DNA from: Candidatus Parcubacteria bacterium
GTDB lineage: Bacteria; Patescibacteriota; Minisyncoccia; Minisyncoccales; JAGLUP01
Reading direction: 5' to 3'
Assembly (NCBI GenBank): GCA_023134715.1
Contig: JAGLUP010000002.1
Location: 79,906 to 143,905, forward strand
Length of the DNA: 64,000 nucleotides
Below the pieces are notes generated by a model. The model saw only the letters and a list, made by a program, of their open reading frames with translations. It was not told where the DNA came from and did no database searches. How positions within the stretch are numbered: the first letter of the stretch is position 1; the number at the start of each line of letters is the position of its first letter. Made by a program: the position numbers and the translations under genes. This document shows, piece by piece, positions 522 through 9,146 of this stretch.

Positions 522-593
522 AATCCAACGCTTAAGATTCTTAAGAAAATAGCAAAAGCGCTTGAGGTAAGTATTGACGATTTAATAAAATAA
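522..593 (+). pseudogene. C-terminal remnant of an XRE-type helix-turn-helix protein
   Basis: My translation of 522..593 is NPTLKILKKIAKALEVSIDDLIK*, the typical tail of an XRE/Cro HTH domain. It is preceded by an in-frame TAG (519..521) and has no start codon. Confidence 0.4.
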
Positions 594-598
594 TTTTT

Positions 599-1537
599 AT
601 GACTAAGCAAGTTGATATTTCAAAACAAAAAAAAGAGTTGCTTCAAAAGTTAAAAAGTCCCTCAATATCTGATGGCTATAAAAGATATTTAGGCACTCCT
701 TTGCGCTATGCGGGTGGAAAAACTTTGGCGGTCGGACATATTGTCAATTTACTGCCAGACAAAATAGGCAGAGTCGTGTCTCCTTTTCTCGGTGGGGCAT
801 CTGTCGAAATTGCATTATCAAAAGAACTCGGCATAAAAGTTATTGGATATGACATTTTTGATATTCTTATAAATTATTGGCACTATCAGATAACTAAGCC
901 GAAAGAGTTGGCAAAAAAACTAGAGAAATTTAAGCCAACCAAAGAAGAATATGCGAGGGTTAGGGAGATAATGAAAAAACACTGGAAAGGAATAAAAAAA
1001 CTAGAAGGGCTTGATTTAGCTGCTGTTTATTATTTTAATCATAATTATTCTTATGGCCCTCATTTTCTCGGCTCTCAATCAAGTGTTTATCTCCAACCAG
1101 AAAGACACAAAACAACAGTAGAAAAAGTAAAAAACTTCGATACAAAAAACCTAAAGGTTTTTTGTAATAGTTTTGAAAAAATAATTCCGAAATATAAAAA
1201 CGATTTTCTATATTGTGACCCGCCTTATTATCTTGATGGAGATAGTAAAATGTTTATCGGAATGTATCCTCACAGAAACTTCCCAATACACCACAAGGGT
1301 TTTAAGCACGACGAACTTAGAGATCTTCTAATGGCACACAAGGGCGGGTTTATTCTCTCCTACAATGATTGTTCCACAATTAGAGAGTGGTATAAGGGCT
1401 TCAATATGATAGCCCCGTCTTGGCAATATACCTTTAGTCAGGGTGATACACGAATCGGCAAAAATAGAAATGAGAGGAATAATGGCTCTCACATTAAAAA
1501 ATCACACGAAATAATAATATGGAAACTCCCAAAATAA
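599..1537 (+). CDS. Dam-family (D12 class) N6-adenine DNA methyltransferase
   Basis: N-terminal LRYAGGK motif, SAM-binding SPFLGGAS, catalytic LYCDPPYY; 312 aa. Confidence 0.85.
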   Translation: MTKQVDISKQKKELLQKLKSPSISDGYKRYLGTPLRYAGGKTLAVGHIVNLLPDKIGRVVSPFLGGASVEIALSKELGIKVIGYDIFDILINYWHYQITKPKELAKKLEKFKPTKEEYARVREIMKKHWKGIKKLEGLDLAAVYYFNHNYSYGPHFLGSQSSVYLQPERHKTTVEKVKNFDTKNLKVFCNSFEKIIPKYKNDFLYCDPPYYLDGDSKMFIGMYPHRNFPIHHKGFKHDELRDLLMAHKGGFILSYNDCSTIREWYKGFNMIAPSWQYTFSQGDTRIGKNRNERNNGSHIKKSHEIIIWKLPK

Positions 1538-2304
1538 GAAAAACAAGAGCTTCTTCGTCAGACGAAGCAAGACGATATCGACAACAGGGGCATGACGATG
1601 CACTATTATTTGCGCTTGCCATAGGTCTAAATGAAGATTATAAAAATGACGCAAAGGCGAAAAAAGATGTGATTGATCCGTCTGGTGATTCCCATTCGGT
1701 AAAGAGTGGAGAGAAAAAATGGCAAATATTCTTATACGGTTTAACTCGTTTTGAAAACGATGCCTTTTTTCGTGTAATGAACGGAATAGGACAACTTTTG
1801 AGTAACTGCATCAAGTCTTTTCCAGAAACATATCAGGAATATGAACAAAATAAGGCAGAGGCAAAAGAGAAGTTACGCCCACATATGGTTGCACTTGCCG
1901 ATAAATTGCAAGATAAGCACAGGTTGAGAGCTTTCATTGGCAAATCAATGTTCAATGGTGGAGAAGTAAATTATTTAACTGTATATCAAGACAATAAATT
2001 TCATATTTTTTGGGGAAAGGAAGTAGAGCAAATAATGGCAGGCAATCTTGAAGTCGCTAATTCACAAGCAAGACAAGCTGGTCAATTTCCTGAACAAAAA
2101 GTTATATTTAGATTCGAAGGTACAAATCTTGCTGAACTTGAAATGCGGAACGATAGCCCTACGCACTATAGAGAAATAAGGTTTAATATGTATAAACCAA
2201 AAGCCATGAAATTACTTTTTTCAAAAATTACATTCAAACAAAATTATAATGAAAAAGTAATTTTGTATGGAGAAGCTACGAGGCATTTTGGTCGCTGGAC
2301 TTAG
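1519..2304 (+). CDS. putative cognate type II restriction endonuclease (family not recognised)
   Basis: Overlaps the methylase 3' end by 19 nt. Possible PD-(D/E)xK-like stretch IDPSGDSHSVKSGEKKW. The call rests on position only. Confidence 0.4.
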   Translation: METPKIRKTRASSSDEARRYRQQGHDDALLFALAIGLNEDYKNDAKAKKDVIDPSGDSHSVKSGEKKWQIFLYGLTRFENDAFFRVMNGIGQLLSNCIKSFPETYQEYEQNKAEAKEKLRPHMVALADKLQDKHRLRAFIGKSMFNGGEVNYLTVYQDNKFHIFWGKEVEQIMAGNLEVANSQARQAGQFPEQKVIFRFEGTNLAELEMRNDSPTHYREIRFNMYKPKAMKLLFSKITFKQNYNEKVILYGEATRHFGRWT

Positions 2305-2614
2305 ATACAGAAAAAATCCGAAAGGATATTTTGGAAAACCGAATTTGGTTTTGAAAAAGTATAAAACAGTTATTTTCATTGATTCTTGTTTTTGGCATAG
2401 CTGTAAAAAACATTGTCGTTTACCGGCGATAAGAAGAAAATATTGGACCGAAAAAATAGAAAGAAACAAAAAGCGAGACAAAGAGGTTAATCGTTATTAT
2501 AAAAAAATCGGCTGGAAAATTATCAGAGTTTGGGAACATGATTTGCAGAAAAATTACAGGAATACATTAAAGAGCAAAATAAAAAAGGTAAAAAACTTTT
2601 CGGTAGTATTGTAA
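2267..2614 (+). CDS. vsr: Vsr-like very-short-patch-repair endonuclease, N-terminally short and possibly degenerate
   Basis: LRGILVAGLRYR...GKPNLVLKKYKTVIFIDSCFWHSC...YWTEKIERNKKRD...GWKIIRVWEHDL matches the Vsr core. A stop lies 2 codons upstream of the ATG, and the ORF overlaps the preceding ORF by 38 nt. Confidence 0.7.
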   Translation: MEKLRGILVAGLRYRKNPKGYFGKPNLVLKKYKTVIFIDSCFWHSCKKHCRLPAIRRKYWTEKIERNKKRDKEVNRYYKKIGWKIIRVWEHDLQKNYRNTLKSKIKKVKNFSVVL

Positions 2615-2844
2615 TAGAAAAAACAACAGGTGGATGATAAATCAAAATGTGAAATACGACTGGACCAAATGTGCAAAAAACGATTGGAGCGACTAGGATA
2701 AATTACTTATTTAGAAAGTTTTTACTATAGAATTATGAACACCTACAAAATGCTTTATATAAAACAAGAGGATTGGGAAGCCCAACAACAAAAGCCGAGA
2801 AACTTTCGGAAAGTCATTAGAACGTTCAGTAAAGAATAAACCTT

Positions 2845-5800
2845 ATGAGTATTCCATCCCCAAAAGATTTTATGAAAAAAAGAAAACCTTACAGGTTTTC
2901 TGATTCAAAAATTGTAACGGAAAGTAAGTTAAATCGTACCATTCTTGAATATCAGTTAGATACCTTGGGAAGCAAAAAACAGGAGCAAGACTTTGAAGAG
3001 TTTGCAAGGAAACTTTGCCAATATGAAATTTGCCCTAACCTTCGACCTCAAACAGGCTCTACTGGTGGAGGCGATAGTAAGGTAGATTCAGCAACCATTC
3101 CCGTTGCTTCCCAAATACGGCTTTCTTTTTTTCAGGGACAAGATAACCAAAACAAAGAAGAATTTGCTTTTGCTTTTAGTACTCAAAAAGATTGGTCTGG
3201 TAAAGTTAGAAGCGATACTGAAGAAATACATAAAACTGGAAGAACCTACGCAAAAGTCTTTTGTGTTACAAGTAAATTTGCGCGAGATAAAACAAGGGCA
3301 ACTTTAGAAGATGGGCTATCTAAGAAACATAGTTTCCAAGTCGTTATTCTCGATAGAAATTGGATTCTCGATAAGGTATTCGCAAACAAAAGGCAAAAAC
3401 TTGCTATAGAAGAATTAAAACTTGGAGATGGACTTGAAGAGAAAAAAGAAGTTGGTCCTTTGGATCACCAACGGAAAAAACAATTTGATGAGTTGAATAC
3501 ATCCATTATAGAGGATGTTAGTAAAAATCACGTCACTATAAAAACTGTAGATAATAGTCTAGATGTGGCACTGCTAGCTGCAGAACTTGAGGAGCCAAGG
3601 CAAGATGTTGAGGGTTTATTTGAGCGTGCAATTAGGTTCGCTAAGGAGCACGGGACTGCTAACCAATACTTTACTGCTTTATATCAAAGAACGTGGACTA
3701 CTTTTTTTTGGTTTGAGGATTTTGCAATTTTTTTAAAACTTTATAATGAGGTTGAAAACCTAGCGCTTGCTTCCAAGAATATATTTTCTACTGAACGTTT
3801 AAATAATTTATGGGGTCTTCTCTCTACACTAGCTTTAACATCAGATTTGGTCTCGGACAAACTTCTTAAAGAAAAGACAAAGAGTCTTCAGGACAAACTC
3901 AATTCTCATAAAAATAACGAAGCAAATCTAAGTGCTTCAGTACATGCCGAGGCGATGCTGTGCTTCACAAATCTTTTGCAACATAGGGGTGACCCGACCG
4001 AAGTAGCAAAGACCTTTCGGCAACTCAAGGCTGTAATAGATAAGGCAAGTAATCTTATTGGTTTTCCATTTGAGATAACTTTCCAACTCTTAAACGAGAT
4101 GGATGATGTGTTTAGTGGCGAAAGTGCCTACGAGGAACTACAAGAGCATTTGGTTGAGGTGGTTACAGAAAGAGAGGGAGATCTGTCGGCTGGCGAGTTA
4201 CTTCTCAATCGTGGGATACAGCATCTTAAAGGGAAGCGAATATATAAAGCAATTGATTTTTTAGGGAGAGCCTTGAGACGTTTCTATAAAAAAGAAAGTA
4301 AGGATCAGCTCGTTCATGCCCTTTTCTTTCTCTCAATAGCCTACGAAGATGCTGGACTTCTCTGGGCGACTCGCGGTGTATTATTAAACGCCGCATCTCA
4401 TGCAACCAGTGATTTTTGGTTATACAGCAAAATAAATACGATGCAGCTCTCTTGCTATAAAAGGCTAAAAACTATTGAGCTTCTGTTGGGGCGAATAGGC
4501 TATGCATTGGAATGGCATCAATTACACCTTATTCTCGCCTCTCAACTCATAAAAACCGATGAAGAAAGGAATAAGCTCTTAGAAAAAAACCTCTACTTCG
4601 GTTCATTGATGGGATTGCTTTTAATTAAAACTCCTGACAGGGAACTGAAAATGTTAGAGAAACTGCCCGATACTCTAATGGAAATGGATTTAGACTTTAC
4701 TGCATTTGGTTTAATTTATCGTCTTGGCGGCAAGGACTTACTACCCCCGTCATTTTTAGACAAAATGAAATCTGAAGAAGTTGAGGACTTTTTCAATTCA
4801 TATCTTGCGCAACCTGCACAAGAATCTCTGCCAGACGTACCTGCATACTACGTTGAAGATACCGTTGAATTAAAGTCTAGAATTCTTGGATGCGAATATA
4901 TTGTAAAAGTGCCGAATAGTAGTCCCGAAATAGAAATTGGTGAGTATATACTCGCAGCTCTTGAAAGCTTTTTGTCTACGGCAATAGATATGAAAGCAGC
5001 TTCTAGAGACAGCAGTGTGATTGTTGCAATCTCACGAGATTCTGCACAAGGAGAAGAATTAAAATATGAGATAAAAAAGGACGGTAAATTTGGCATAGCA
5101 ATAACTTGCGGTTCTTTTAACCCACACTCTCTCTTAAAGGAAAGTCAGGAAAAGATTTCTAAGAGTATTTCAGAGATTGTTTTACAATTAGTTGGGAATA
5201 CGATTATCTTTAATGACTCTGAAACTGATTTGCTCAAGCTTTTTAAAGATGAAGAGGTTAGTTCGAGGGCTTTTAGTTTCTCTACACCAATGGTCACGCT
5301 AGGCAATGTCCTTGGGTACAATCCAAAAAGGTCAATTACTGAATGGATTAAACCTAAAGCGAAGTCCTATCCCTATATTCCGGAGAAGAGTGGGAGGCCA
5401 GTTAAAAATAAAGAATTCAAAAAGGAAGATACTGCTAAATCATCGGATATACCTATACGTCACGATGAAATAAAAAATGTTTCTATAATACGGCAACATC
5501 TTTGGGATAAGGCAGGTTGGAGCGGTGTACTTTATATAACTGTACCCGCTCATCTGCCTGTAATGGCTTTCCTGTTTAAAAATGAAGAAAAAGCAAGAGC
5601 TATATTCAAAGATTGGAAGGAAACATTTGGCGATGAAGATAAAGACGAAACAATAAGAATTTCTATGGTGAGAGGGGTTTCAGAAAAAGATCCTGCTTGG
5701 TATAGAGCTGTTGTTACAACAAACATCGACCTTGCCACGAAAAACCCAGAACATAATCGTCTTATAATTGTCTCAAGAATACACACTCTTACTCCAGATA

Positions 5801-6075
5801 CTACAGTAAACCTCGACAGATTTTCTGAAAGTTTCAAAAAGTTTGGTATTTACCTGTTAGCCCCAGCAATTATTGACGATACTAAGTCGTATCCGAGAGT
5901 TCTTACTGATATAGGAATTGTAAAAAGGAATTTTAATGATAGGCAGGCTTGGGAAATCGGTCCAAATGATTTAGACATATCGAGCATCAACGATGAGACT
6001 AAACCTATAATTCCTAAAGATATGAAAAACGCGCCGTTGCTTGAGCTCTTTAAGCAAAAAGATAAACTGAAATAA
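2845..6075 (+). CDS. 1076-aa orphan protein: possible N-terminal nuclease-like head, helical-repeat middle, unknown C-terminal domain
   Basis: Long uninterrupted ORF. N-terminal FEEFARKLCQYEICPNLRPQTGSTGGGDSKVD followed by AFAFSTQKDW resembles Mrr-type heads (weak). No Walker A motif seen. Confidence 0.6.
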   Translation: MSIPSPKDFMKKRKPYRFSDSKIVTESKLNRTILEYQLDTLGSKKQEQDFEEFARKLCQYEICPNLRPQTGSTGGGDSKVDSATIPVASQIRLSFFQGQDNQNKEEFAFAFSTQKDWSGKVRSDTEEIHKTGRTYAKVFCVTSKFARDKTRATLEDGLSKKHSFQVVILDRNWILDKVFANKRQKLAIEELKLGDGLEEKKEVGPLDHQRKKQFDELNTSIIEDVSKNHVTIKTVDNSLDVALLAAELEEPRQDVEGLFERAIRFAKEHGTANQYFTALYQRTWTTFFWFEDFAIFLKLYNEVENLALASKNIFSTERLNNLWGLLSTLALTSDLVSDKLLKEKTKSLQDKLNSHKNNEANLSASVHAEAMLCFTNLLQHRGDPTEVAKTFRQLKAVIDKASNLIGFPFEITFQLLNEMDDVFSGESAYEELQEHLVEVVTEREGDLSAGELLLNRGIQHLKGKRIYKAIDFLGRALRRFYKKESKDQLVHALFFLSIAYEDAGLLWATRGVLLNAASHATSDFWLYSKINTMQLSCYKRLKTIELLLGRIGYALEWHQLHLILASQLIKTDEERNKLLEKNLYFGSLMGLLLIKTPDRELKMLEKLPDTLMEMDLDFTAFGLIYRLGGKDLLPPSFLDKMKSEEVEDFFNSYLAQPAQESLPDVPAYYVEDTVELKSRILGCEYIVKVPNSSPEIEIGEYILAALESFLSTAIDMKAASRDSSVIVAISRDSAQGEELKYEIKKDGKFGIAITCGSFNPHSLLKESQEKISKSISEIVLQLVGNTIIFNDSETDLLKLFKDEEVSSRAFSFSTPMVTLGNVLGYNPKRSITEWIKPKAKSYPYIPEKSGRPVKNKEFKKEDTAKSSDIPIRHDEIKNVSIIRQHLWDKAGWSGVLYITVPAHLPVMAFLFKNEEKARAIFKDWKETFGDEDKDETIRISMVRGVSEKDPAWYRAVVTTNIDLATKNPEHNRLIIVSRIHTLTPDTTVNLDRFSESFKKFGIYLLAPAIIDDTKSYPRVLTDIGIVKRNFNDRQAWEIGPNDLDISSINDETKPIIPKDMKNAPLLELFKQKDKLK

Positions 6076-6099
6076 TTTTGGACGTAGGAAATTAGGGAG

Positions 6100-6131
6100 T
6101 TTGCCGATCTCTGAAATCGGCAAAAGTTTTT
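6100..6131 (+). terminator. intrinsic terminator of the 1076-aa gene
   Basis: TTTGCCGAT-ctctgaa-ATCGGCAAA followed by AGTTTTT. Confidence 0.65.
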
Positions 6132-6149
6132 AATTGCGAATATAAAACA

Positions 6150-6349
6150 GCCTGCCGCAAAAAATCGGGTAAAGCACGAAAGCTTAGCAGGCAAAAGGAA
6201 GGGGGTCCCGCCTACGCTAAAGCTTCGGACGGGCAGGATGGGGGATCCCGCCACGGCGGGATTGCCTACTAAGCTGTCCCGCGAAGCGGGACTAGCGTTT
6301 CCGCTTTCCTGCGATAGCCCCAGTAGCAGAGCGAAGCTTGCTACGGGGC
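6150..6349. repeat. cluster of GC-rich hairpins in AT-rich intergenic DNA
   Basis: GCCTGC(6150-55)/GCAGGC(6187-92); ATCCCGC-CACG-GCGGGAT (6245-62); GTCCCGC-GAA-GCGGGAC (6276-92); GCCCCAGTAGCA...TGCTACGGGGC (6317-49). Confidence 0.7.
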
Positions 6350-6352
6350 GAG

Positions 6353-6764
6353 CAGGAACACAAAACAGAAAAAATTTTCTTTTCATTAAATTAAAAATTA
6401 AAAAATTGCTGGCGAGAAAATAAAATGTGGAAAATTTTTCTGTTTTGTTTCCCGCCGTAGCGGAGCGGAGGCGGTTGCGGAAATGCTTGCCCGAGCGGAG
6501 TCCCCGATTTATCGGGGACGGAGCGAGGATAAAATACCAATCAAAATTCCGCGTCCGGATTTTCGCGAAAAAAAGTTCGGATTTCATTCAAAAGTCCCAG
6601 CATTAAAGGATAACTTAAAAAAATCGCCAAGAAGGCGGTTTTTAAATTTATTATTTTCTCGCCAGTAATTTTTTAATTTTTAATTGGATAACCAGTCGCT
6701 TCGCTCCTTGTAATTGCTTCGCAATTAAGAATAAAAAGAAAATTTTTTCTGTTTTGTGTTCCTG
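6353..6764. repeat. composite inverted-repeat (MITE-like) element carrying GC-rich hairpins and an internal terminator
   Basis: 6353-6379 is the reverse complement of 6738-6764. 6391-6423 is the reverse complement of 6651-6683 (1 mismatch). A further inverted copy of the 25-nt core lies at 6429-6453. Internal hairpins: CCGCC/GGCGG 6452-74 and GTCCCCGAT..ATCGGGGAC 6500-19. CGCC-aagaa-GGCG+T5 at 6624-43. Confidence 0.6.
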
Positions 6765-6860
6765 TCCCAAAATCTGCTTCGCAGGGCAGTCGGGCAAAAA
6801 TTCCTTCTCCTAGATATCTTTTCTTTTAATAGGAATAAATTTTTTCTGGATTTGACAAAA

Positions 6861-6896
6861 CCGAAGCACATAAAGATTATATGCTTCGGTTTTTTT
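6861..6896. terminator. bidirectional hairpin terminator (serves the - strand Kazal-repeat gene)
   Basis: CCGAAGCA-14 nt-TGCTTCGG with T7 on the + strand and T4 on the - strand. Confidence 0.55.
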
Positions 6897-7015
6897 AGAG
6901 CCGATCATAGCACTTTTACTCTATCTTATGGCAACTATTAGCAACCATTAGATCAATGCATCTATGCAACAATAGAAATTTTCGTGGCTTCCTAAAAACT
7001 TTCTGTCCTAAAATG

Positions 7016-8854
7016 CTACCAAGCCAAGAAATTCCACCAAGGTTTTTTAACAGCCAAAACCTTGCCAGTTTCAGCATCAATCTTAGATTCAACTTTCATA
7101 GAAACAGGTATCAAGAAAAACAATTTTGCTTTTTTTGTCCCTTGGATTAAATAAATCGGTTTTTTTGCTTCTTCTTTGATCTCAATTTCTTTAATTGCTT
7201 TTTGGTCGGGAGTGCCCGAAACTGCCACTGCATCTGCTGGGGAAATATTAATTGGCTTTTTGCCATCAGAGGTTTTCATTAACAATTTAGATTCCTCGAT
7301 GACTAATTCTTGAGAACATTTCACTTGAACTGAAATATTAGGTGTTTCTAATATCACTCTCCCTCCTCCAGTATGAAGAACAACATCTTGGGATTGAAAT
7401 TCACCAGCTCTGAAAAACTCAATCTTACCAGTTGAGGTATCGTAGGCAATCCCTCCTTTTTTGTCGTCTTCTTCCTCGGACTTAGCGCTACAGATGACTT
7501 GGCCAGGATATGAAGCAGTTACTTCACATTCAGCGCCTTCGGGACATTCATAATAACTGCAGGGATTTTTCTTAGCGCATCTAAGTCCCAAACCGGGAAA
7601 TCTGTAACAGTTCAAATCCATGTTTTTAGGGCAAGGATTTAACGCATCACAAGTAATATTAGTTATATCAACGCCCCACTTACATTCGCCATCATATTTT
7701 TTAACTGCATCAGCTTCCATTAAAAAACAATTATTCATGTAAGTAATTCCATCACAGCCACAAACAGGTTTATAATAATCTGGACAAGGGCTTTGCCTTA
7801 CTTCGCAAGTTCCACTGATACCCTCGCAACATCCTTTAGAAGCAATTGCGTCCTCACACTTTTCATGCAGAAAACAATCATATTCAACATAATCTGTTGA
7901 TCCACATTCATTATCAGATAAACACTCCTTTCTGCAAACTATCTGCATTGGAAATGTGAGCTGAACCAAACCTTCAAATCCCTCTGGGCAAGGATAGTAA
8001 CTAAATGGGTTATCTGCCGCACACTTTGTACCAATTCCTGGAAATTCATAACAGCCTCCAATAAATGCGCACGTTGATTTTCCATAATCACTGATATCAC
8101 AGCTTACATTTGATATTTCTTTAATACACGGTCCATCATAATTCTTGAAAACTCGGTTTCTCTTTCTAAGGCAGTCATTATCATAGGTCACACTATCGCA
8201 TCCACAAACAGGTGAAATAATAGAAGAACAGATTGTCGGAATCTCTGTACATGTTCCAGCTTCAAGATCGCAAGGAAAATAATCACAGAATTCGCTATCT
8301 GCGCAATCATTGTCTAAACGGCAGTTCCCCGCACATACTACTTCTTTTGGAATCGTGAAAAAACCTTCTTTGACAATACAGGCAGAATTTTCAGATATTA
8401 TCGAACAATTAAAGTAATTGCAGGGATCTGATTCAGCGCATCTCGTGCCAATATTCGGAAACTTAATACATTCCAAGTCGCCAGGACAACTTGCTTGAGG
8501 GTCACAATAATGGCTAGATATTTGTTCAATACATTCTCCTCTGTAGTTCCCTGAAATTCCTGAAGCTTGTCTGTGGCAATCACTTTGGTAAACTTGTCCA
8601 TCGCATCCACATACAGGCCCGACAATTTCACATTGACTAGAATCAGGCTTTCTTACGCATATACCCTCATCTTCATTACAATTTTGGAATTCACAGAATT
8701 CTGTTATATCACAATCAGAATCTAAATAACATTGGGTTGATGCTTTAGTAAAGAAAATGCCAATAAAAGAAAAAAGCACTAAAAGAAAAACTAATAGTCC
8801 TAAAAGAAAGATATTTTTTGTTTTTAGCACAATGGCTAAATTTTTTATATTCAT
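7016..8854 (-). CDS. secreted/anchored Cys-rich protein with three Kazal-like modules
   Basis: N-terminal hydrophobic anchor LLGLLVFLLVLFSFIGIFF. Three PVCGCDGxxYxxxC motifs (CGCDGQVYQSDC, CGCDSVTYDNDC, CGCDGITYMNNC), each inside a repeated ~130-aa Cys-rich unit. Confidence 0.7.
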   Translation of the reverse strand: MNIKNLAIVLKTKNIFLLGLLVFLLVLFSFIGIFFTKASTQCYLDSDCDITEFCEFQNCNEDEGICVRKPDSSQCEIVGPVCGCDGQVYQSDCHRQASGISGNYRGECIEQISSHYCDPQASCPGDLECIKFPNIGTRCAESDPCNYFNCSIISENSACIVKEGFFTIPKEVVCAGNCRLDNDCADSEFCDYFPCDLEAGTCTEIPTICSSIISPVCGCDSVTYDNDCLRKRNRVFKNYDGPCIKEISNVSCDISDYGKSTCAFIGGCYEFPGIGTKCAADNPFSYYPCPEGFEGLVQLTFPMQIVCRKECLSDNECGSTDYVEYDCFLHEKCEDAIASKGCCEGISGTCEVRQSPCPDYYKPVCGCDGITYMNNCFLMEADAVKKYDGECKWGVDITNITCDALNPCPKNMDLNCYRFPGLGLRCAKKNPCSYYECPEGAECEVTASYPGQVICSAKSEEEDDKKGGIAYDTSTGKIEFFRAGEFQSQDVVLHTGGGRVILETPNISVQVKCSQELVIEESKLLMKTSDGKKPINISPADAVAVSGTPDQKAIKEIEIKEEAKKPIYLIQGTKKAKLFFLIPVSMKVESKIDAETGKVLAVKKPWWNFLAW

Positions 8855-9068
8855 TTATTTAATCTTTGCGCTTAATTCTAATCTTTATTTCGACCTTTAT
8901 CTCATTATATAAAAATTCTACTTTAATTTCAACTCTATTACTTAATGTCTTCACTACCTTAAACAGATAGATATACTTTTCTGCCAGTCTGTCCGAAAGA
9001 TGGAAGCGAAATAGGAAGGAAATGGCTTGGAAAAGAAAAAAATTGCGTTTGCAATTTTTTGTCAAATC

Positions 9069-9099
9069 CAGAAAAAATTTTCTTTTCATTAAATTAAAA
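9069..9099 (+). repeat. 31-nt direct copy of the left arm of the 6353-6764 element
   Basis: cagaaaaaattttcttttcattaaattaaaa is identical at 6366-6396 and 9069-9099. Confidence 0.8.
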
Positions 9100-9125
9100 T
9101 AAAAATCGTCTTATTGGCGGTTTTT

Positions 9126-9146
9126 TGGTATAATGGAATAATTATG
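9126..9146 (+). promoter_or_regulatory. extended -10 promoter placed for a leaderless rarA mRNA
   Basis: TGgTATAAT (-10 at 9129-9134), 9 nt, ATG 9144; no SD. Confidence 0.55.

What the first reader, a model, noticed from the sequence alone, without database searches (positions are those of the whole stretch)
6150..6764. 600-bp GC-rich hairpin field and a 410-bp inverted-repeat (MITE-like) element downstream of the defence genes
At least six independent GC-rich hairpins with related stems (ATCCCGCC, GTCCCGC, GTCCCCGAT, GCCCC..) lie in otherwise AT-rich DNA. Nested long inverted repeats are superimposed on them: 6353-6423 versus 6651-6683 plus 6738-6764, and a third inverted copy of the 25-nt core at 6429-6453. 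The element contains its own terminator (6624-6643), so the ~215 nt from 6429 to 6643 could be an sRNA. The six-frame ORFs here (6238.., 6483.., 5850..6587) look like artefacts of GC richness.
Basis: seen in the sequence. Interest (0 to 1): 0.55.

Follow-up and report, generated by a model that had tools for sequence, protein, structure and literature searches.

The report
Serine-recombinase island end module
The GC-rich hairpin field is one full and one decayed copy of a conserved non-coding element of Patescibacteria (CPR bacteria) that starts with the last codons of a large serine recombinase gene and marks the ends of mobile, tRNA-integrating islands carrying defence genes.

Summary
In detail: the hairpins, the nested inverted repeats and the 68% GC islands in a 33% GC genome are all there and exceed chance. 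The MITE/sRNA reading is only partly right. Window 6150-6603, read on the minus strand, is a full member of a conserved element family. I found 195 copies in 159 public Patescibacteria contigs. There is no match in Rfam, phages, plasmids or IMG/VR.

Each copy has three parts. First comes a short core that equals the reverse complement of a tRNA 3' CCA end. Then come 17-20 codons under coding-type constraint, which are the C-terminal tail of a large serine recombinase (LSR). Last comes a roughly 300-nt palindromic module with an invariant 19-bp inverted repeat, covarying hairpins and a terminator.

Elsewhere, LSR genes sit beside the element and run antisense into tRNA genes. Inward-pointing pairs of the element bracket 3.6-10 kb of cargo. 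That cargo holds restriction-modification genes in the two loci I annotated, and an XRE-type regulator gene comes first in 47 of 122 copies.

In the window the copy faces a restriction-modification cassette and a 1076-aa orphan gene. No LSR or tRNA lies within the 64 kb. The 410-bp "MITE" is the full copy back-to-back with a degenerate second copy (6646-6827, plus strand). What the palindromic module does is unresolved.

The parts
6150..6603 (-). Full copy of the conserved Patescibacteria element: recombinase-tail relic, palindromic module, block-7 stem and a degenerate terminator.
   Evidence: An nhmmer profile built from 12 family members hits minus strand 6489-6159 at 107.8 bits, E = 8e-33. 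The plus-strand reading scores only 50 bits. The copy is colinear with the family alignment.
6541..6603 (-). Relic of the C-terminal tail of a large serine recombinase: MLGLLNEIRTFFRENPDAEF*. The att-type core (ATGCTGGGA) is at its 5' end.
   Evidence: The same block is present in 23 genome loci. Column variability by codon position is 0.51 / 0.09 / 0.73 bits. It is the true C-terminus of an intact 520-aa LSR in L173.
6477..6486 (-). Helix H1, 5' arm on the element strand (GCATTTCCGC). It pairs with 6295-6304.
   Evidence: H1 is 97% paired in 135 unique copies.
6295..6304 (-). Helix H1, 3' arm (GCGGAAACGC on the minus strand).
6430..6448 (-). IR19: the invariant 19-nt repeat ACAAAACAGAAAAATTTTC on the minus strand.
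   Evidence: The sequence is essentially invariant across 135 unique copies.
6360..6379 (-). IR19': the inverted partner of IR19, with one extra T. It lies across a 50-nt AT-rich spacer (6380-6429) that has a GC core.
6305..6359 (-). Side hairpin hpB, enlarged here by an inserted GC-rich hairpin that carries a GCGAAGC mini-hairpin.
   Evidence: The hairpin covaries across the family: TTCTCT/AGAGAA, TCCGC/GCGGA, CCTGC/GCAGG. The window version appears.
6182..6274 (-). Block-7 stem (6182-6192 pairs with 6264-6274). The window has extra GC hairpins inserted in its loop. The hairpin GTCCCGCGAAGCGGGAC follows at 6276-6292.
   Evidence: The block-7 stem is 96.5% paired, with AT<->GC swaps at three positions. 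The inserted hairpin has a homologue in L062. The GTCCCGC hairpin is shared with AP024682.
6150..6181 (-). Degenerate version of the family's terminal terminator (family CGGGCTTCGCCCGATTTTTTTT; window CGTGCTTTACCCGATTTTTTG).
   Evidence: Alignments.
6604..6645 (.). Flank just outside the core. It includes the 6619-6643 hairpin. About 35 nt of it recur beside the copy left of the window, and a related sequence lies upstream of mgsA (about 9096-9131).
   Evidence: (L115 positions 1-57), and direct reading of the sequence.
6646..6827 (+). Degenerate second copy in the opposite orientation (blocks 4-7 only), with a 44-nt GCGAAGC-type hairpin insertion at 6686-6729.
   Evidence: nhmmer hits plus strand 6726-6827 at 39 bits, E = 7e-12, profile positions 103-219. 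Searches give the repeats and coordinates.
6857..6896 (.). Bidirectional terminator hairpin for the convergent Kazal/PepSY gene (7016-8854, minus strand). It is not part of the element.
   Evidence: Inverted repeat I3, plus sequence reading.
9057..9099 (+). 43-nt fragment of the element (part of IR19' plus the spacer) about 30-75 nt upstream of the mgsA -10 box. Its first 24 nt recur in inverted orientation at 6837-6860.
   Evidence: 31/31 and 24/24 identities. Sequence.
546..6125 (+). Cargo faced by the element: a truncated HTH controller remnant, a D12 methyltransferase (599-1537), a 261-aa ORF, Vsr (2267-2614), and the 1076-aa orphan gene cassette (2578-6125).
   Evidence: Pfam and PADLOC hits. 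Window 2578-6125 is 97% identical to L236, where no element follows. Window 546-2299 is 76% identical to the cassettes in L237-L242.

Best explanation
Window 6150-6603 (minus strand) is the conserved end module of a family of mobile islands of Patescibacteria that are moved by a large serine recombinase (LSR). In the intact arrangement the LSR gene ends in the tail ...W(L/R)x.L(N/D)E(I/V)RTFF(K/E)(E/Q)NPE*. A roughly 300-nt palindromic non-coding module, closed by a terminator, follows it directly. The recombination core lies inside the LSR reading frame, just before that tail. It is TGG plus 3-5 nt, the reverse complement of a tRNA 3' CCA end. Recombination with a tRNA gene splits the unit. 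The LSR body is left reading antisense into the tRNA. The tail plus the palindromic module ends up at the far end of the island, pointing inward at the cargo. The window copy is such a far-end junction: host flank, then core, tail and module, then cargo (the restriction-modification cassette and the 1076-aa gene). A decayed second copy lies back-to-back with it, and another copy lies just left of the window. The long inverted repeats are these copies plus the palindromy within the module. Shown: family membership, the link to the LSR, the exact breakpoints, the match between core type and tRNA, and the pairs that bracket cargo. Inferred: that the LSR makes these junctions; that the window copy is an inactive or trans-mobilisable relic; and that the palindromic module acts in cis, as the terminator and insulator of the recombinase transcript and/or an accessory architectural site for recombination, rather than as a free sRNA.
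For: Family: an exact-pattern scan of GTDB species genomes gave about 40 true relatives. Homology is confined to about -130/+190 nt around the core pattern, and the flanks are unrelated. A profile search finds 195 copies in 159 loci. The window copy scores 107.8 bits on the minus strand.

Coding relic: codon-position variability is 0.51 / 0.09 / 0.73 bits. There is no conserved start codon, and the ORFs span only 13-78 codons from the previous stop.

LSR link: LSR genes with Resolvase, Recombinase and Zn_ribbon_recom domains lie beside the element in 38 of 120 metagenome loci. The region just upstream of the element's tail duplicates the LSR C-terminal coding end up to a sharp breakpoint. L173 and L210 have LSR ORFs that end in the tail and are followed by the module; the L173 ORF (520 aa) was read in full.

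tRNA integration: 14 of 24 resolved LSR 3' ends overlap a tRNA gene in antisense. Homology breaks exactly at the TGG. The core type matches the tRNA in the same locus: TGGCTCCG with tRNA-Asn, TGGCGG with tRNA-Ser, TGGTGG with tRNA-Ala.

Cargo: all 13 loci with two good copies are inward-pointing pairs 3.6-10.1 kb apart. The two annotated cargos hold methylase, restriction and abortive-infection-type genes.

Structure: helices are 96-97% paired against 40-68% for slid controls, and the block-7 stem has AT<->GC swaps.

Not tied to the 1076-aa gene: the same gene, 97% identical, lacks the element in L236.
Against: The 64-kb window has no LSR (tblastn) and no tRNA, so the local copy is linked to the mechanism only by homology. 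The window's core (GCTGGGA) matches no tRNA end in the fetched loci. The two window-genome copies are in direct orientation and share about 35 nt of outer flank, which differs from the usual inward pairs with unrelated flanks. A word-indexed search of 5.8 billion proteins with a 45-aa query holding the tail (27 upstream codons plus the 18-aa tail) found only five tiny ORFs and no LSR carrying it. The fused state is therefore rare in assemblies: 2 loci here. The purpose of the extra internal copy next to the LSR start is unexplained. So is the near-invariance of the 19-bp repeat while the LSRs diverge to 40-60% amino-acid identity. No recombination, excision or transcription has been observed.
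Confidence: 0.62

Rival explanations
1. The element is an independent structured non-coding RNA gene (sRNA or longer). It would be transcribed on the minus strand from about 6600 to 6150, or exist as a processed 3'-UTR RNA of the recombinase mRNA, with a trans-acting function such as regulating the island or the recombinase.
For: It is GC-rich within an AT-rich genome. Fold z-scores are strong. Helices covary and are kept in 135 unique copies. A Rho-independent terminator is conserved at one end, on one strand only. Non-coding identity stays near 75% while the neighbouring recombinase falls to 40-60% amino-acid identity.
Against: G.T mismatches are no more common than A.C mismatches in the helices, about 46 vs 55, so no strand is favoured as RNA. 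The 19-bp stem is invariant in sequence on both arms rather than covarying, which points to recognition of the sequence itself. There is no conserved promoter; the upstream sequence is either recombinase coding DNA or unrelated flank. Copies are multiple, often partial, and sit at recombination breakpoints. No element column specifies the tRNA target: mutual information is at most 0.65 of 1.58 bits, which argues against a guide-RNA role. There is no Rfam match.
Confidence: 0.17
2. A MITE or foldback transposable element. Either the 410-bp unit at 6353-6764, or at family level the roughly 170-nt palindromic core bounded by GCGTTTCCGC...GCGGAAACGC, would be a non-autonomous transposon that has inserted downstream of recombinase genes and elsewhere.
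For: The inverted repeats exceed chance. There are many copies, often at contig ends. A short element variant has the recombinase tail and block 7 but lacks the palindromic core (L087, L173 upstream copy, L034 LSR end). Conversely, L081 and L088 carry the palindromic core, and the tail-motif search found no tail beside them. In some copies the core is flanked by similar CCCGCCCC / CCCACCCC strings (sequence reading).
Against: The 6353-6764 arms are the interior of two element copies, and the profile aligns straight through them. The sequences abutting the arms (GGGGCGAG|CAGGAAC and GTTCCTG|TCCCAAAA) show no target-site duplication. No DDE or HUH transposase is linked to the family. The possible duplication around the core is absent in most copies, including the window's. 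The core keeps a fixed position and orientation relative to the tail and block 7 in the great majority of copies.
Confidence: 0.1
3. An invertible DNA switch (inverton). The 342-bp segment between the 35-nt repeats 6353-6387 and 6730-6764 would flip, as would the kilobase-scale cargo between inward-pointing element pairs elsewhere, changing transcription across the locus.
For: The arms share 31 identical nucleotides. The Logan assembly graph breaks exactly at both arms. The linked enzyme family, the serine recombinases, includes invertases. All 13 element pairs are inverted. Some contigs are mirror-symmetric beyond the repeats (L144, L205, L123, L166), as expected if both orientations coexist in the sample.
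Against: No recombinase lies within 64 kb. Both neighbouring genes end, rather than start, at this intergenic region, so a flipped promoter would have nothing obvious to drive. Contig breaks at 31-nt repeats are expected from a k-mer assembler whether or not inversion occurs. The large serine recombinases characterised so far favour attP x attB recombination (my own knowledge, not tested here).
Confidence: 0.07
4. A chance or assembly artefact: low-complexity AT-rich repeats and GC hairpins with no biological unit, or a chimeric assembly.
For: The internal 6383-6734 stretch was not recovered in the Logan contigs I could fetch.
Against: The window sequence is colinear with a family of 195 copies across both Logan break points. 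Shuffles give no such repeats.
Confidence: 0.01

Closest known systems
Integrative elements moved by large serine recombinases (phiC31/Bxb1-type integrases, SPbeta SprA, SCCmec ccr, TnpX/TndX transposons) and tRNA-targeting genomic islands
   Same: A Resolvase/Recombinase/Zn-ribbon enzyme sits at one end of the island. There is a short core of identity with the target, breakpoints are precise, insertion is at the 3' end of tRNA genes, and the cargo is accessory or defence genes.
   Different: The core lies inside the recombinase reading frame, so integration swaps the enzyme's last 17-20 residues and its 3' flank. A roughly 300-nt palindromic non-coding module, better conserved than the enzyme, follows the tail. 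A second, inverted copy of tail plus module sits next to the recombinase start, so the cargo is bracketed by inverted arms of roughly 400-500 bp. I found no description of this arrangement in four literature searches.
MITEs and REP/REPIN/BIME-type palindromic repeats
   Same: Non-coding and GC-rich, with hairpin-forming inverted repeats. Multi-copy, intergenic, and they break assemblies.
   Different: There are no terminal repeats at the true ends, no target-site duplication, and no DDE or RAYT transposase partner. Orientation is fixed relative to a recombinase tail. The sequence is conserved across many species rather than being genome-specific.
Integron attC sites and cassette arrays
   Same: Structured, imperfectly palindromic recombination-associated sites that bound promoter-less or variable cargo. 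In the window's genome two copies are in direct orientation around a 6.7-kb cargo.
   Different: The recombinase is a serine, not a tyrosine (IntI), enzyme. The element is 3-6 times longer than attC. Most pairs are inverted rather than direct. No attI/Pc platform is present.
Serine-invertase switches (Hin/hix, Gin/gix) and engineered phiC31 cassette exchange between inverted att sites
   Same: A serine recombinase lies next to a segment flanked by inverted sites. Inverted att-bearing arms around swappable cargo resemble the layout used for recombinase-mediated cassette exchange.
   Different: The enzymes here are large integrase-type recombinases, not small invertases. Neither alternative orientations nor cargo exchange has been shown.

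Membership tests
Patescibacteria recombinase-tail / palindromic element family (defined here) | Significant, near full-length match to the family profile on one strand | tested here: met
   Minus strand 6489-6159, 107.8 bits, E = 8e-33, profile positions 8-254 of 262. The plus-strand reading scores 50 bits.
Patescibacteria recombinase-tail / palindromic element family (defined here) | Block order: core, tail codons, H1, hairpin A, IR19, AT-rich spacer with GC core, IR19', hairpin B, H1', block-7 stem, terminator | tested here: met
   All blocks are located in order. The terminator is degenerate, and extra GC hairpins are inserted in hairpin B and in the block-7 loop.
Patescibacteria recombinase-tail / palindromic element family (defined here) | Recombinase-tail coding block (..L N E I R T F F x E N P..) followed by a stop, directly upstream of H1 | tested here: met
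   6603-6541 on the minus strand reads MLGLLNEIRTFFRENPDAEF*.
att-bearing end of an LSR integrative island | A large serine recombinase gene next to the site or at the other island end | tested here: inconclusive
   At family level this holds in 38 of 120 metagenome loci, plus L017, L034, L066 and L078. No LSR was found in the 64-kb window. The island's other end lies outside the window.
att-bearing end of an LSR integrative island | Sharp homology breakpoint at a short core shared with the target site | tested here: met
   Breaks fall exactly at TGG in many independent loci. The core matches the 3' end of the tRNA in the same locus for the Asn, Ser and Ala types. In the window the break is at (T/A)TG|CTGGGA, but about 35 nt of outer flank is shared with the second copy.
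att-bearing end of an LSR integrative island | An identified target (attB), here a tRNA 3' end matching the window's core | tested here: not met
   There is no tRNA in the window. No tRNA ending ..CCCAGCCA occurs in any fetched locus. The rest of the source genome could not be read.
att-bearing end of an LSR integrative island | Observed excision or integration (circular junction, empty site) | not testable with these tools
   This needs read-level data or experiments. L173 and L210, where the LSR is fused to the tail and module, are compatible with an unrecombined site.
MITE | Terminal inverted repeats at the ends of the unit | tested here: not met
   The arms 6353-6434 and 6640-6764 are internal blocks of two element copies. 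The true unit ends, the core at 6603 and the terminator at 6150, are not inverted repeats of each other.
MITE | Target-site duplication flanking the unit | tested here: not met
   The sequences abutting the arms do not repeat, and none is seen at 6150/6603.
MITE | A related autonomous element with a transposase and the same ends | tested here: not met
   Among the few neighbouring genes I annotated, the only recombination enzyme is a large serine recombinase, and no DDE or HUH transposase was among them. Most loci were screened only for LSR and XRE genes by tblastn.
Any Rfam 15 RNA family | Covariance-model score at or above the family's gathering threshold | tested here: not met
   No hit at gathering threshold in the window. 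Permissive scans of the window copy and of a canonical copy gave only sub-threshold chance hits such as miRNA precursors.
Inverton (invertible promoter switch) | Inverted repeats, a nearby invertase, and both orientations present in reads | tested here: inconclusive
   The repeats are present. No recombinase lies within the window. Orientation in reads cannot be tested here.

The most novel reading that the evidence does not exclude
The paired, inward-pointing arms (recombination core, recombinase tail and palindromic module) could be a natural cassette-exchange platform. The large serine recombinase would recombine at both arms and swap whole defence-gene cargos between islands or genomes of Patescibacteria. 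The invariant 19-bp repeats and hairpins would be the architectural or synapsis signal, or a single-strand-active signal after DNA uptake, that makes the arms recognisable across widely diverged recombinases. This would be a serine-recombinase counterpart of the integron.
Probability: 0.15. Interest if true: 0.85.

Novelty: new variant of a known kind. Interest (0 to 1): 0.58.

Why it matters
Patescibacteria have tiny genomes and are thought to carry few defence systems and few mobile elements. This finding shows a widespread, sequence-conserved boundary signal for islands that insert at the CCA end of tRNA genes and, where I annotated the cargo, carry restriction-modification and other defence-type genes. 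The signal can be searched for directly to locate variable cargo in CPR metagenomes, including orphans such as the 1076-aa gene here. Two features are unusual for large serine recombinases. The crossover lies inside the enzyme's own reading frame, so integration changes its C-terminus and 3' flank. And the non-coding module beside it is better conserved than the enzyme. If the module proves to be needed for recombination, it would bear on how these recombinases, which are widely used as genome-engineering tools, are controlled.

Tried and rejected
- **Known RNA families:** Rfam at gathering threshold and at permissive thresholds on the window and on a canonical copy gave nothing credible. There are no tRNA or tmRNA genes in the window.
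- **Partner RNA of the 1076-aa orphan protein** (retron-, omega- or bridge-RNA-like): rejected. The same gene, 97% identical, occurs in L236 without the element, and homology stops at 6125.
- **Guide-RNA idea:** no element column tracks the tRNA target type.
- **Independent small ORF or tmRNA-like tag for the peptide block:** rejected. There is no conserved start, and the block is the C-terminus of an intact recombinase in L173.
- **Phage or plasmid origin:** no hit in IMG/VR, INPHARED phages or PLSDB plasmids.
- **oriC or DnaA-box idea** (TTTTCCACA on the minus strand at about 6425-6433): dropped. The motif is not conserved in the family, whose consensus there is TCTACA.
- **sigma-70 promoter reading of the spacer:** no convincing -35/-10 pair in the consensus.
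- **Protein database search with the peptide block:** only five ORFs of 49-72 aa.
- **Literature:** four searches found no description of this element.
- **RNAalifold on the 12-sequence alignment** recovered only part of the structure because the hairpin regions were misaligned. I counted pairs on a profile alignment instead.
- **Fetching the source contig left of the window** failed. Only short Logan contigs were returned.
Full report
**1. What is in the window**

The finding lies in the convergent intergenic region 6076-7015. On one side is a 1076-aa ORF (2845-6075, plus strand) with no Pfam, PADLOC, NCBIfam or PDB-sequence match. On the other is a Kazal/PepSY protein gene (7016-8854, minus strand). 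Upstream on the plus strand lie a D12 adenine methyltransferase, a 261-aa ORF and a Vsr-type endonuclease. The source is a Candidatus Parcubacteria MAG.

The 25-nt core occurs twice against none in shuffles. The only two stretches of the 33% GC window that reach 68% GC are 6154-6369 and 6425-6545. Both strands fold far better than shuffles, with z near -6.

The 6619-6643 hairpin with a T-run exists, but such sites are no more frequent here than in shuffles. Pieces of the repeat also occur at 9057-9099, upstream of mgsA, and at 6837-6860. An independent Logan assembly breaks exactly at the 31-nt repeat edges.

**2. It belongs to a large conserved family**

A scan of one genome per GTDB species with ACAAAACAGAAAAA(N)TTTTC returned 112 loci. 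About 40 of them share extended homology with window 6150-6600. Nearly all are Patescibacteria, Saccharibacteria or Parcubacteria bins. Homology is confined to about -130/+190 nt around the pattern, and the flanks are unrelated.

A profile built from 12 members finds 195 copies in 159 loci. In the window it hits minus strand 6489-6159 at 107.8 bits (E = 8e-33), against 50 bits for the plus-strand reading. It also finds a degenerate copy on the plus strand at 6726-6827 (39 bits). Neither Rfam nor the phage and plasmid collections contain it.

**3. Anatomy, on the element strand (the window's minus strand)**

- **(i)** A core that starts with TGG.
- **(ii)** 17-20 codons: ..L(N/D)E(I/V)RTFF(K/E)(E/Q)NP(E).. 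followed by a stop.
- **(iii)** Helix H1, GCGTTTCCGC ... GCGGAAACGC, which encloses a variable hairpin, the invariant 19-nt ACAAAACAGAAAAATTTTC, an AT-rich spacer of about 50 nt with a GC core, the inverted 19-mer, and a second covarying hairpin.
- **(iv)** A 15-bp stem called block 7.
- **(v)** A terminator, CGGGCTTCGCCCGATTTTTTTT.

The window copy has every block. It also has extra GC hairpins inserted in hairpin B and in the block-7 loop, one of which has a homologue in L062. Its terminator is degenerate.

In 135 unique copies, H1, the 19-mer stem and block 7 are 96-97% paired, against 40-68% for slid controls. Block 7 has AT<->GC swaps at three positions. The 19-mer does not covary; it is invariant. 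G.T and A.C mismatches are about equally frequent, roughly 46 vs 55. The data therefore do not single out an RNA strand.

**4. The codon block is a recombinase tail**

Variability by codon position is 0.51 / 0.09 / 0.73 bits, and the changes include CGA/AGA, CTG/TTG and all four CCN codons. That pattern is a coding signature. Yet there is no conserved start, and the ORFs are only 13-78 codons long. A 5.8-billion-protein search with a 45-aa query containing the tail found only five tiny ORFs.

The explanation came from the neighbouring genes. A large serine recombinase (LSR) with Resolvase, Recombinase and Zn_ribbon_recom domains lies next to the element in L017, L034, L066 and L078 and in 38 of 120 metagenome loci. 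The sequence just upstream of the element's tail duplicates the last 27-60 codons of that recombinase up to a sharp breakpoint. In L173 an intact 520-aa recombinase ends ...KSINWRCFLDDVRTFFEQNPE* and the full module follows it directly. L210 has the same arrangement.

**5. Integration at tRNA ends**

Of 24 resolved recombinase 3' ends, 14 run antisense into a tRNA gene (Asn, Ser, Trp, Ala, Gly or Leu). Several others translate the antisense T-arm as '..DSNP/L..'. In locus after locus, homology between copies stops exactly at the TGG.

The core type matches the tRNA in the same locus. TGGCTCCG goes with tRNA-Asn (...CGGAGCCA), TGGCGG with tRNA-Ser (...CCGCCA), and TGGTGG with tRNA-Ala (...CCACCA). 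The three types are about equally common. This is the pattern expected of site-specific recombination whose crossover lies at the CCA end of the tRNA and inside the recombinase reading frame. After integration the recombinase body stays at the tRNA. The tail plus module lies at the far end of the island, pointing inward.

**6. Cargo**

All 13 loci with two good copies have inward-pointing inverted pairs 3.6-10.1 kb apart. Two examples are the complete Parcubacteria genome AP024682 (two 100%-identical copies 5 kb apart) and contig JAQUQQ010000024. The cargo in these two includes an N6-methylase fused to an S24 peptidase, a Ymh-type protein, a T5orf172/GIY-YIG protein and a type I/III restriction helicase. 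An XRE-type regulator gene follows the terminator end in 47 of 122 copies.

Element identity stays near 75% between loci whose recombinases are only 40-60% identical, and it is poorly correlated with recombinase divergence. The module is therefore strongly constrained and recombines independently of the enzyme.

**7. Back to the window**

The full copy points leftward at the restriction-modification cassette and the 1076-aa gene. That gene, with 270 nt upstream (2578-6125), is 97% identical in a different island in L236. There no element follows it, and a tRNA is nearby. The element is therefore not a partner RNA of that protein. The restriction-modification cassette (546-2299) is 76% identical to cassettes in L237-L242, which have an intact HTH controller gene. 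That gene is truncated in the window.

The Logan contig that covers the window's left edge starts, about 70 nt before the window, with the tail block and about 35 nt of the same outer flank, in direct orientation. The roughly 6.7-kb cargo therefore lies between two copies. Right of the full copy, back-to-back, is the degenerate plus-strand copy (6646-6827) with a 44-nt GCGAAGC-type hairpin insertion. L018 has a similar insertion in its spacer.

The 64-kb window has no recombinase and no tRNA. The window's core (GCTGGGA) predicts a tRNA ending ...TCCCAGCCA, which I could not find in any fetched locus.

**8. What remains open**

The role of the palindromic module is inferred, not shown. My best guess is a cis-acting role: the terminator and insulator of the recombinase transcript and/or an accessory architectural site. 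The reasons are that the 19-mer is invariant in sequence on both arms, no RNA strand is favoured, and no column encodes the target.

Three rivals remain.
- A 3'-UTR-derived RNA is possible.
- So is a nested foldback element. Short variants have the tail and block 7 without the core, and L081 and L088 have the core with no tail detected by the motif search.
- So is an inversion or cassette-exchange function of the inverted pairs.

Also unexplained are the extra inverted copy that sits next to the recombinase start in most loci and the mirror-symmetric contigs L144, L205, L123 and L166.

**9. Verdict**

The feature is real. It is not a known RNA and not a simple MITE. It is a local, recombinase-less copy, plus a decayed partner, of a previously undescribed conserved end module of tRNA-integrating serine-recombinase islands in Patescibacteria. 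I found no description of it in four literature searches.

Noticed in passing
window 2578-6125 (1076-aa ORF at 2845-6075) and L236 9733-13281: The 1076-aa orphan gene has no Pfam, PADLOC, NCBIfam or PDB-sequence match. It travels as a discrete 3.5-kb cassette that is 97% identical in a different Parcubacteria-like contig. There it follows other methyltransferase genes and lies next to a tRNA. It is a candidate new defence gene.
   Followed up: partly
window 546-2614; L237-L242: A restriction-modification-like cassette (D12 methyltransferase, then a 261-aa putative endonuclease, then Vsr in the window) is 76% identical to cassettes elsewhere that begin with an intact 63-88-aa HTH controller gene. 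In the window only the last 50 nt or so of that controller survive (546-598). In L238 the cassette sits beside a different large serine recombinase and terminase-like genes.
   Followed up: partly
window 9057-9131 and 6604-6645: A 43-nt piece of the element lies about 30-75 nt upstream of the TGGTATAAT -10 box of mgsA. The hairpin and T-run just before that box (AAAAATCGTCTTATTGGCGGTTTTTT) is about 69% identical to the minus-strand sequence just outside the element's core. The A/T-tract part (CAGAAAAAATTTTC) looks to me like a promoter UP element. This is from memory and untested.
   Followed up: no
window 6282, 6333 (plus strand), 6699, 6717, 6776 (reverse complement); L018 spacer: Small hairpins built on GCGAAGC/GCTTCGC recur. 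They account for several of the window-specific insertions in the element, and one occurs as an insertion in another family member. They may be a separate class of tiny insertion modules.
   Followed up: no
L034 5582-7246 and 7300-7497; L017 85-1593 and 1780-1914; L173: In most loci with a recombinase, an inverted duplicate of its last 27-60 codons, plus tail and module, sits 150-330 nt upstream of its start codon. The recombinase body is therefore itself flanked by inverted att-like sites. The purpose is unknown.
   Followed up: partly
L144, L205, L123, L166, L143 (metagenome contigs): Some contigs are mirror-symmetric well beyond the element, in two cases including a recombinase gene on both outer sides. 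Either the inverted repeats are very long or the assembler has folded two orientations together.
   Followed up: no
window 7016-8854: A 612-aa Parcubacteria protein combines Kazal-type protease-inhibitor domains with a PepSY domain.
   Followed up: no
Genome-contig loci L013, L014, L062, L064, L066, L087, L111: Near-identical element copies occur on short contigs binned as Gammaproteobacteria, Omnitrophota, Nanoarchaeota, Verrucomicrobia and Bdellovibrionales. These are probably mis-binned Patescibacteria fragments. The repeat breaks assemblies and may mislead binning.
   Followed up: no
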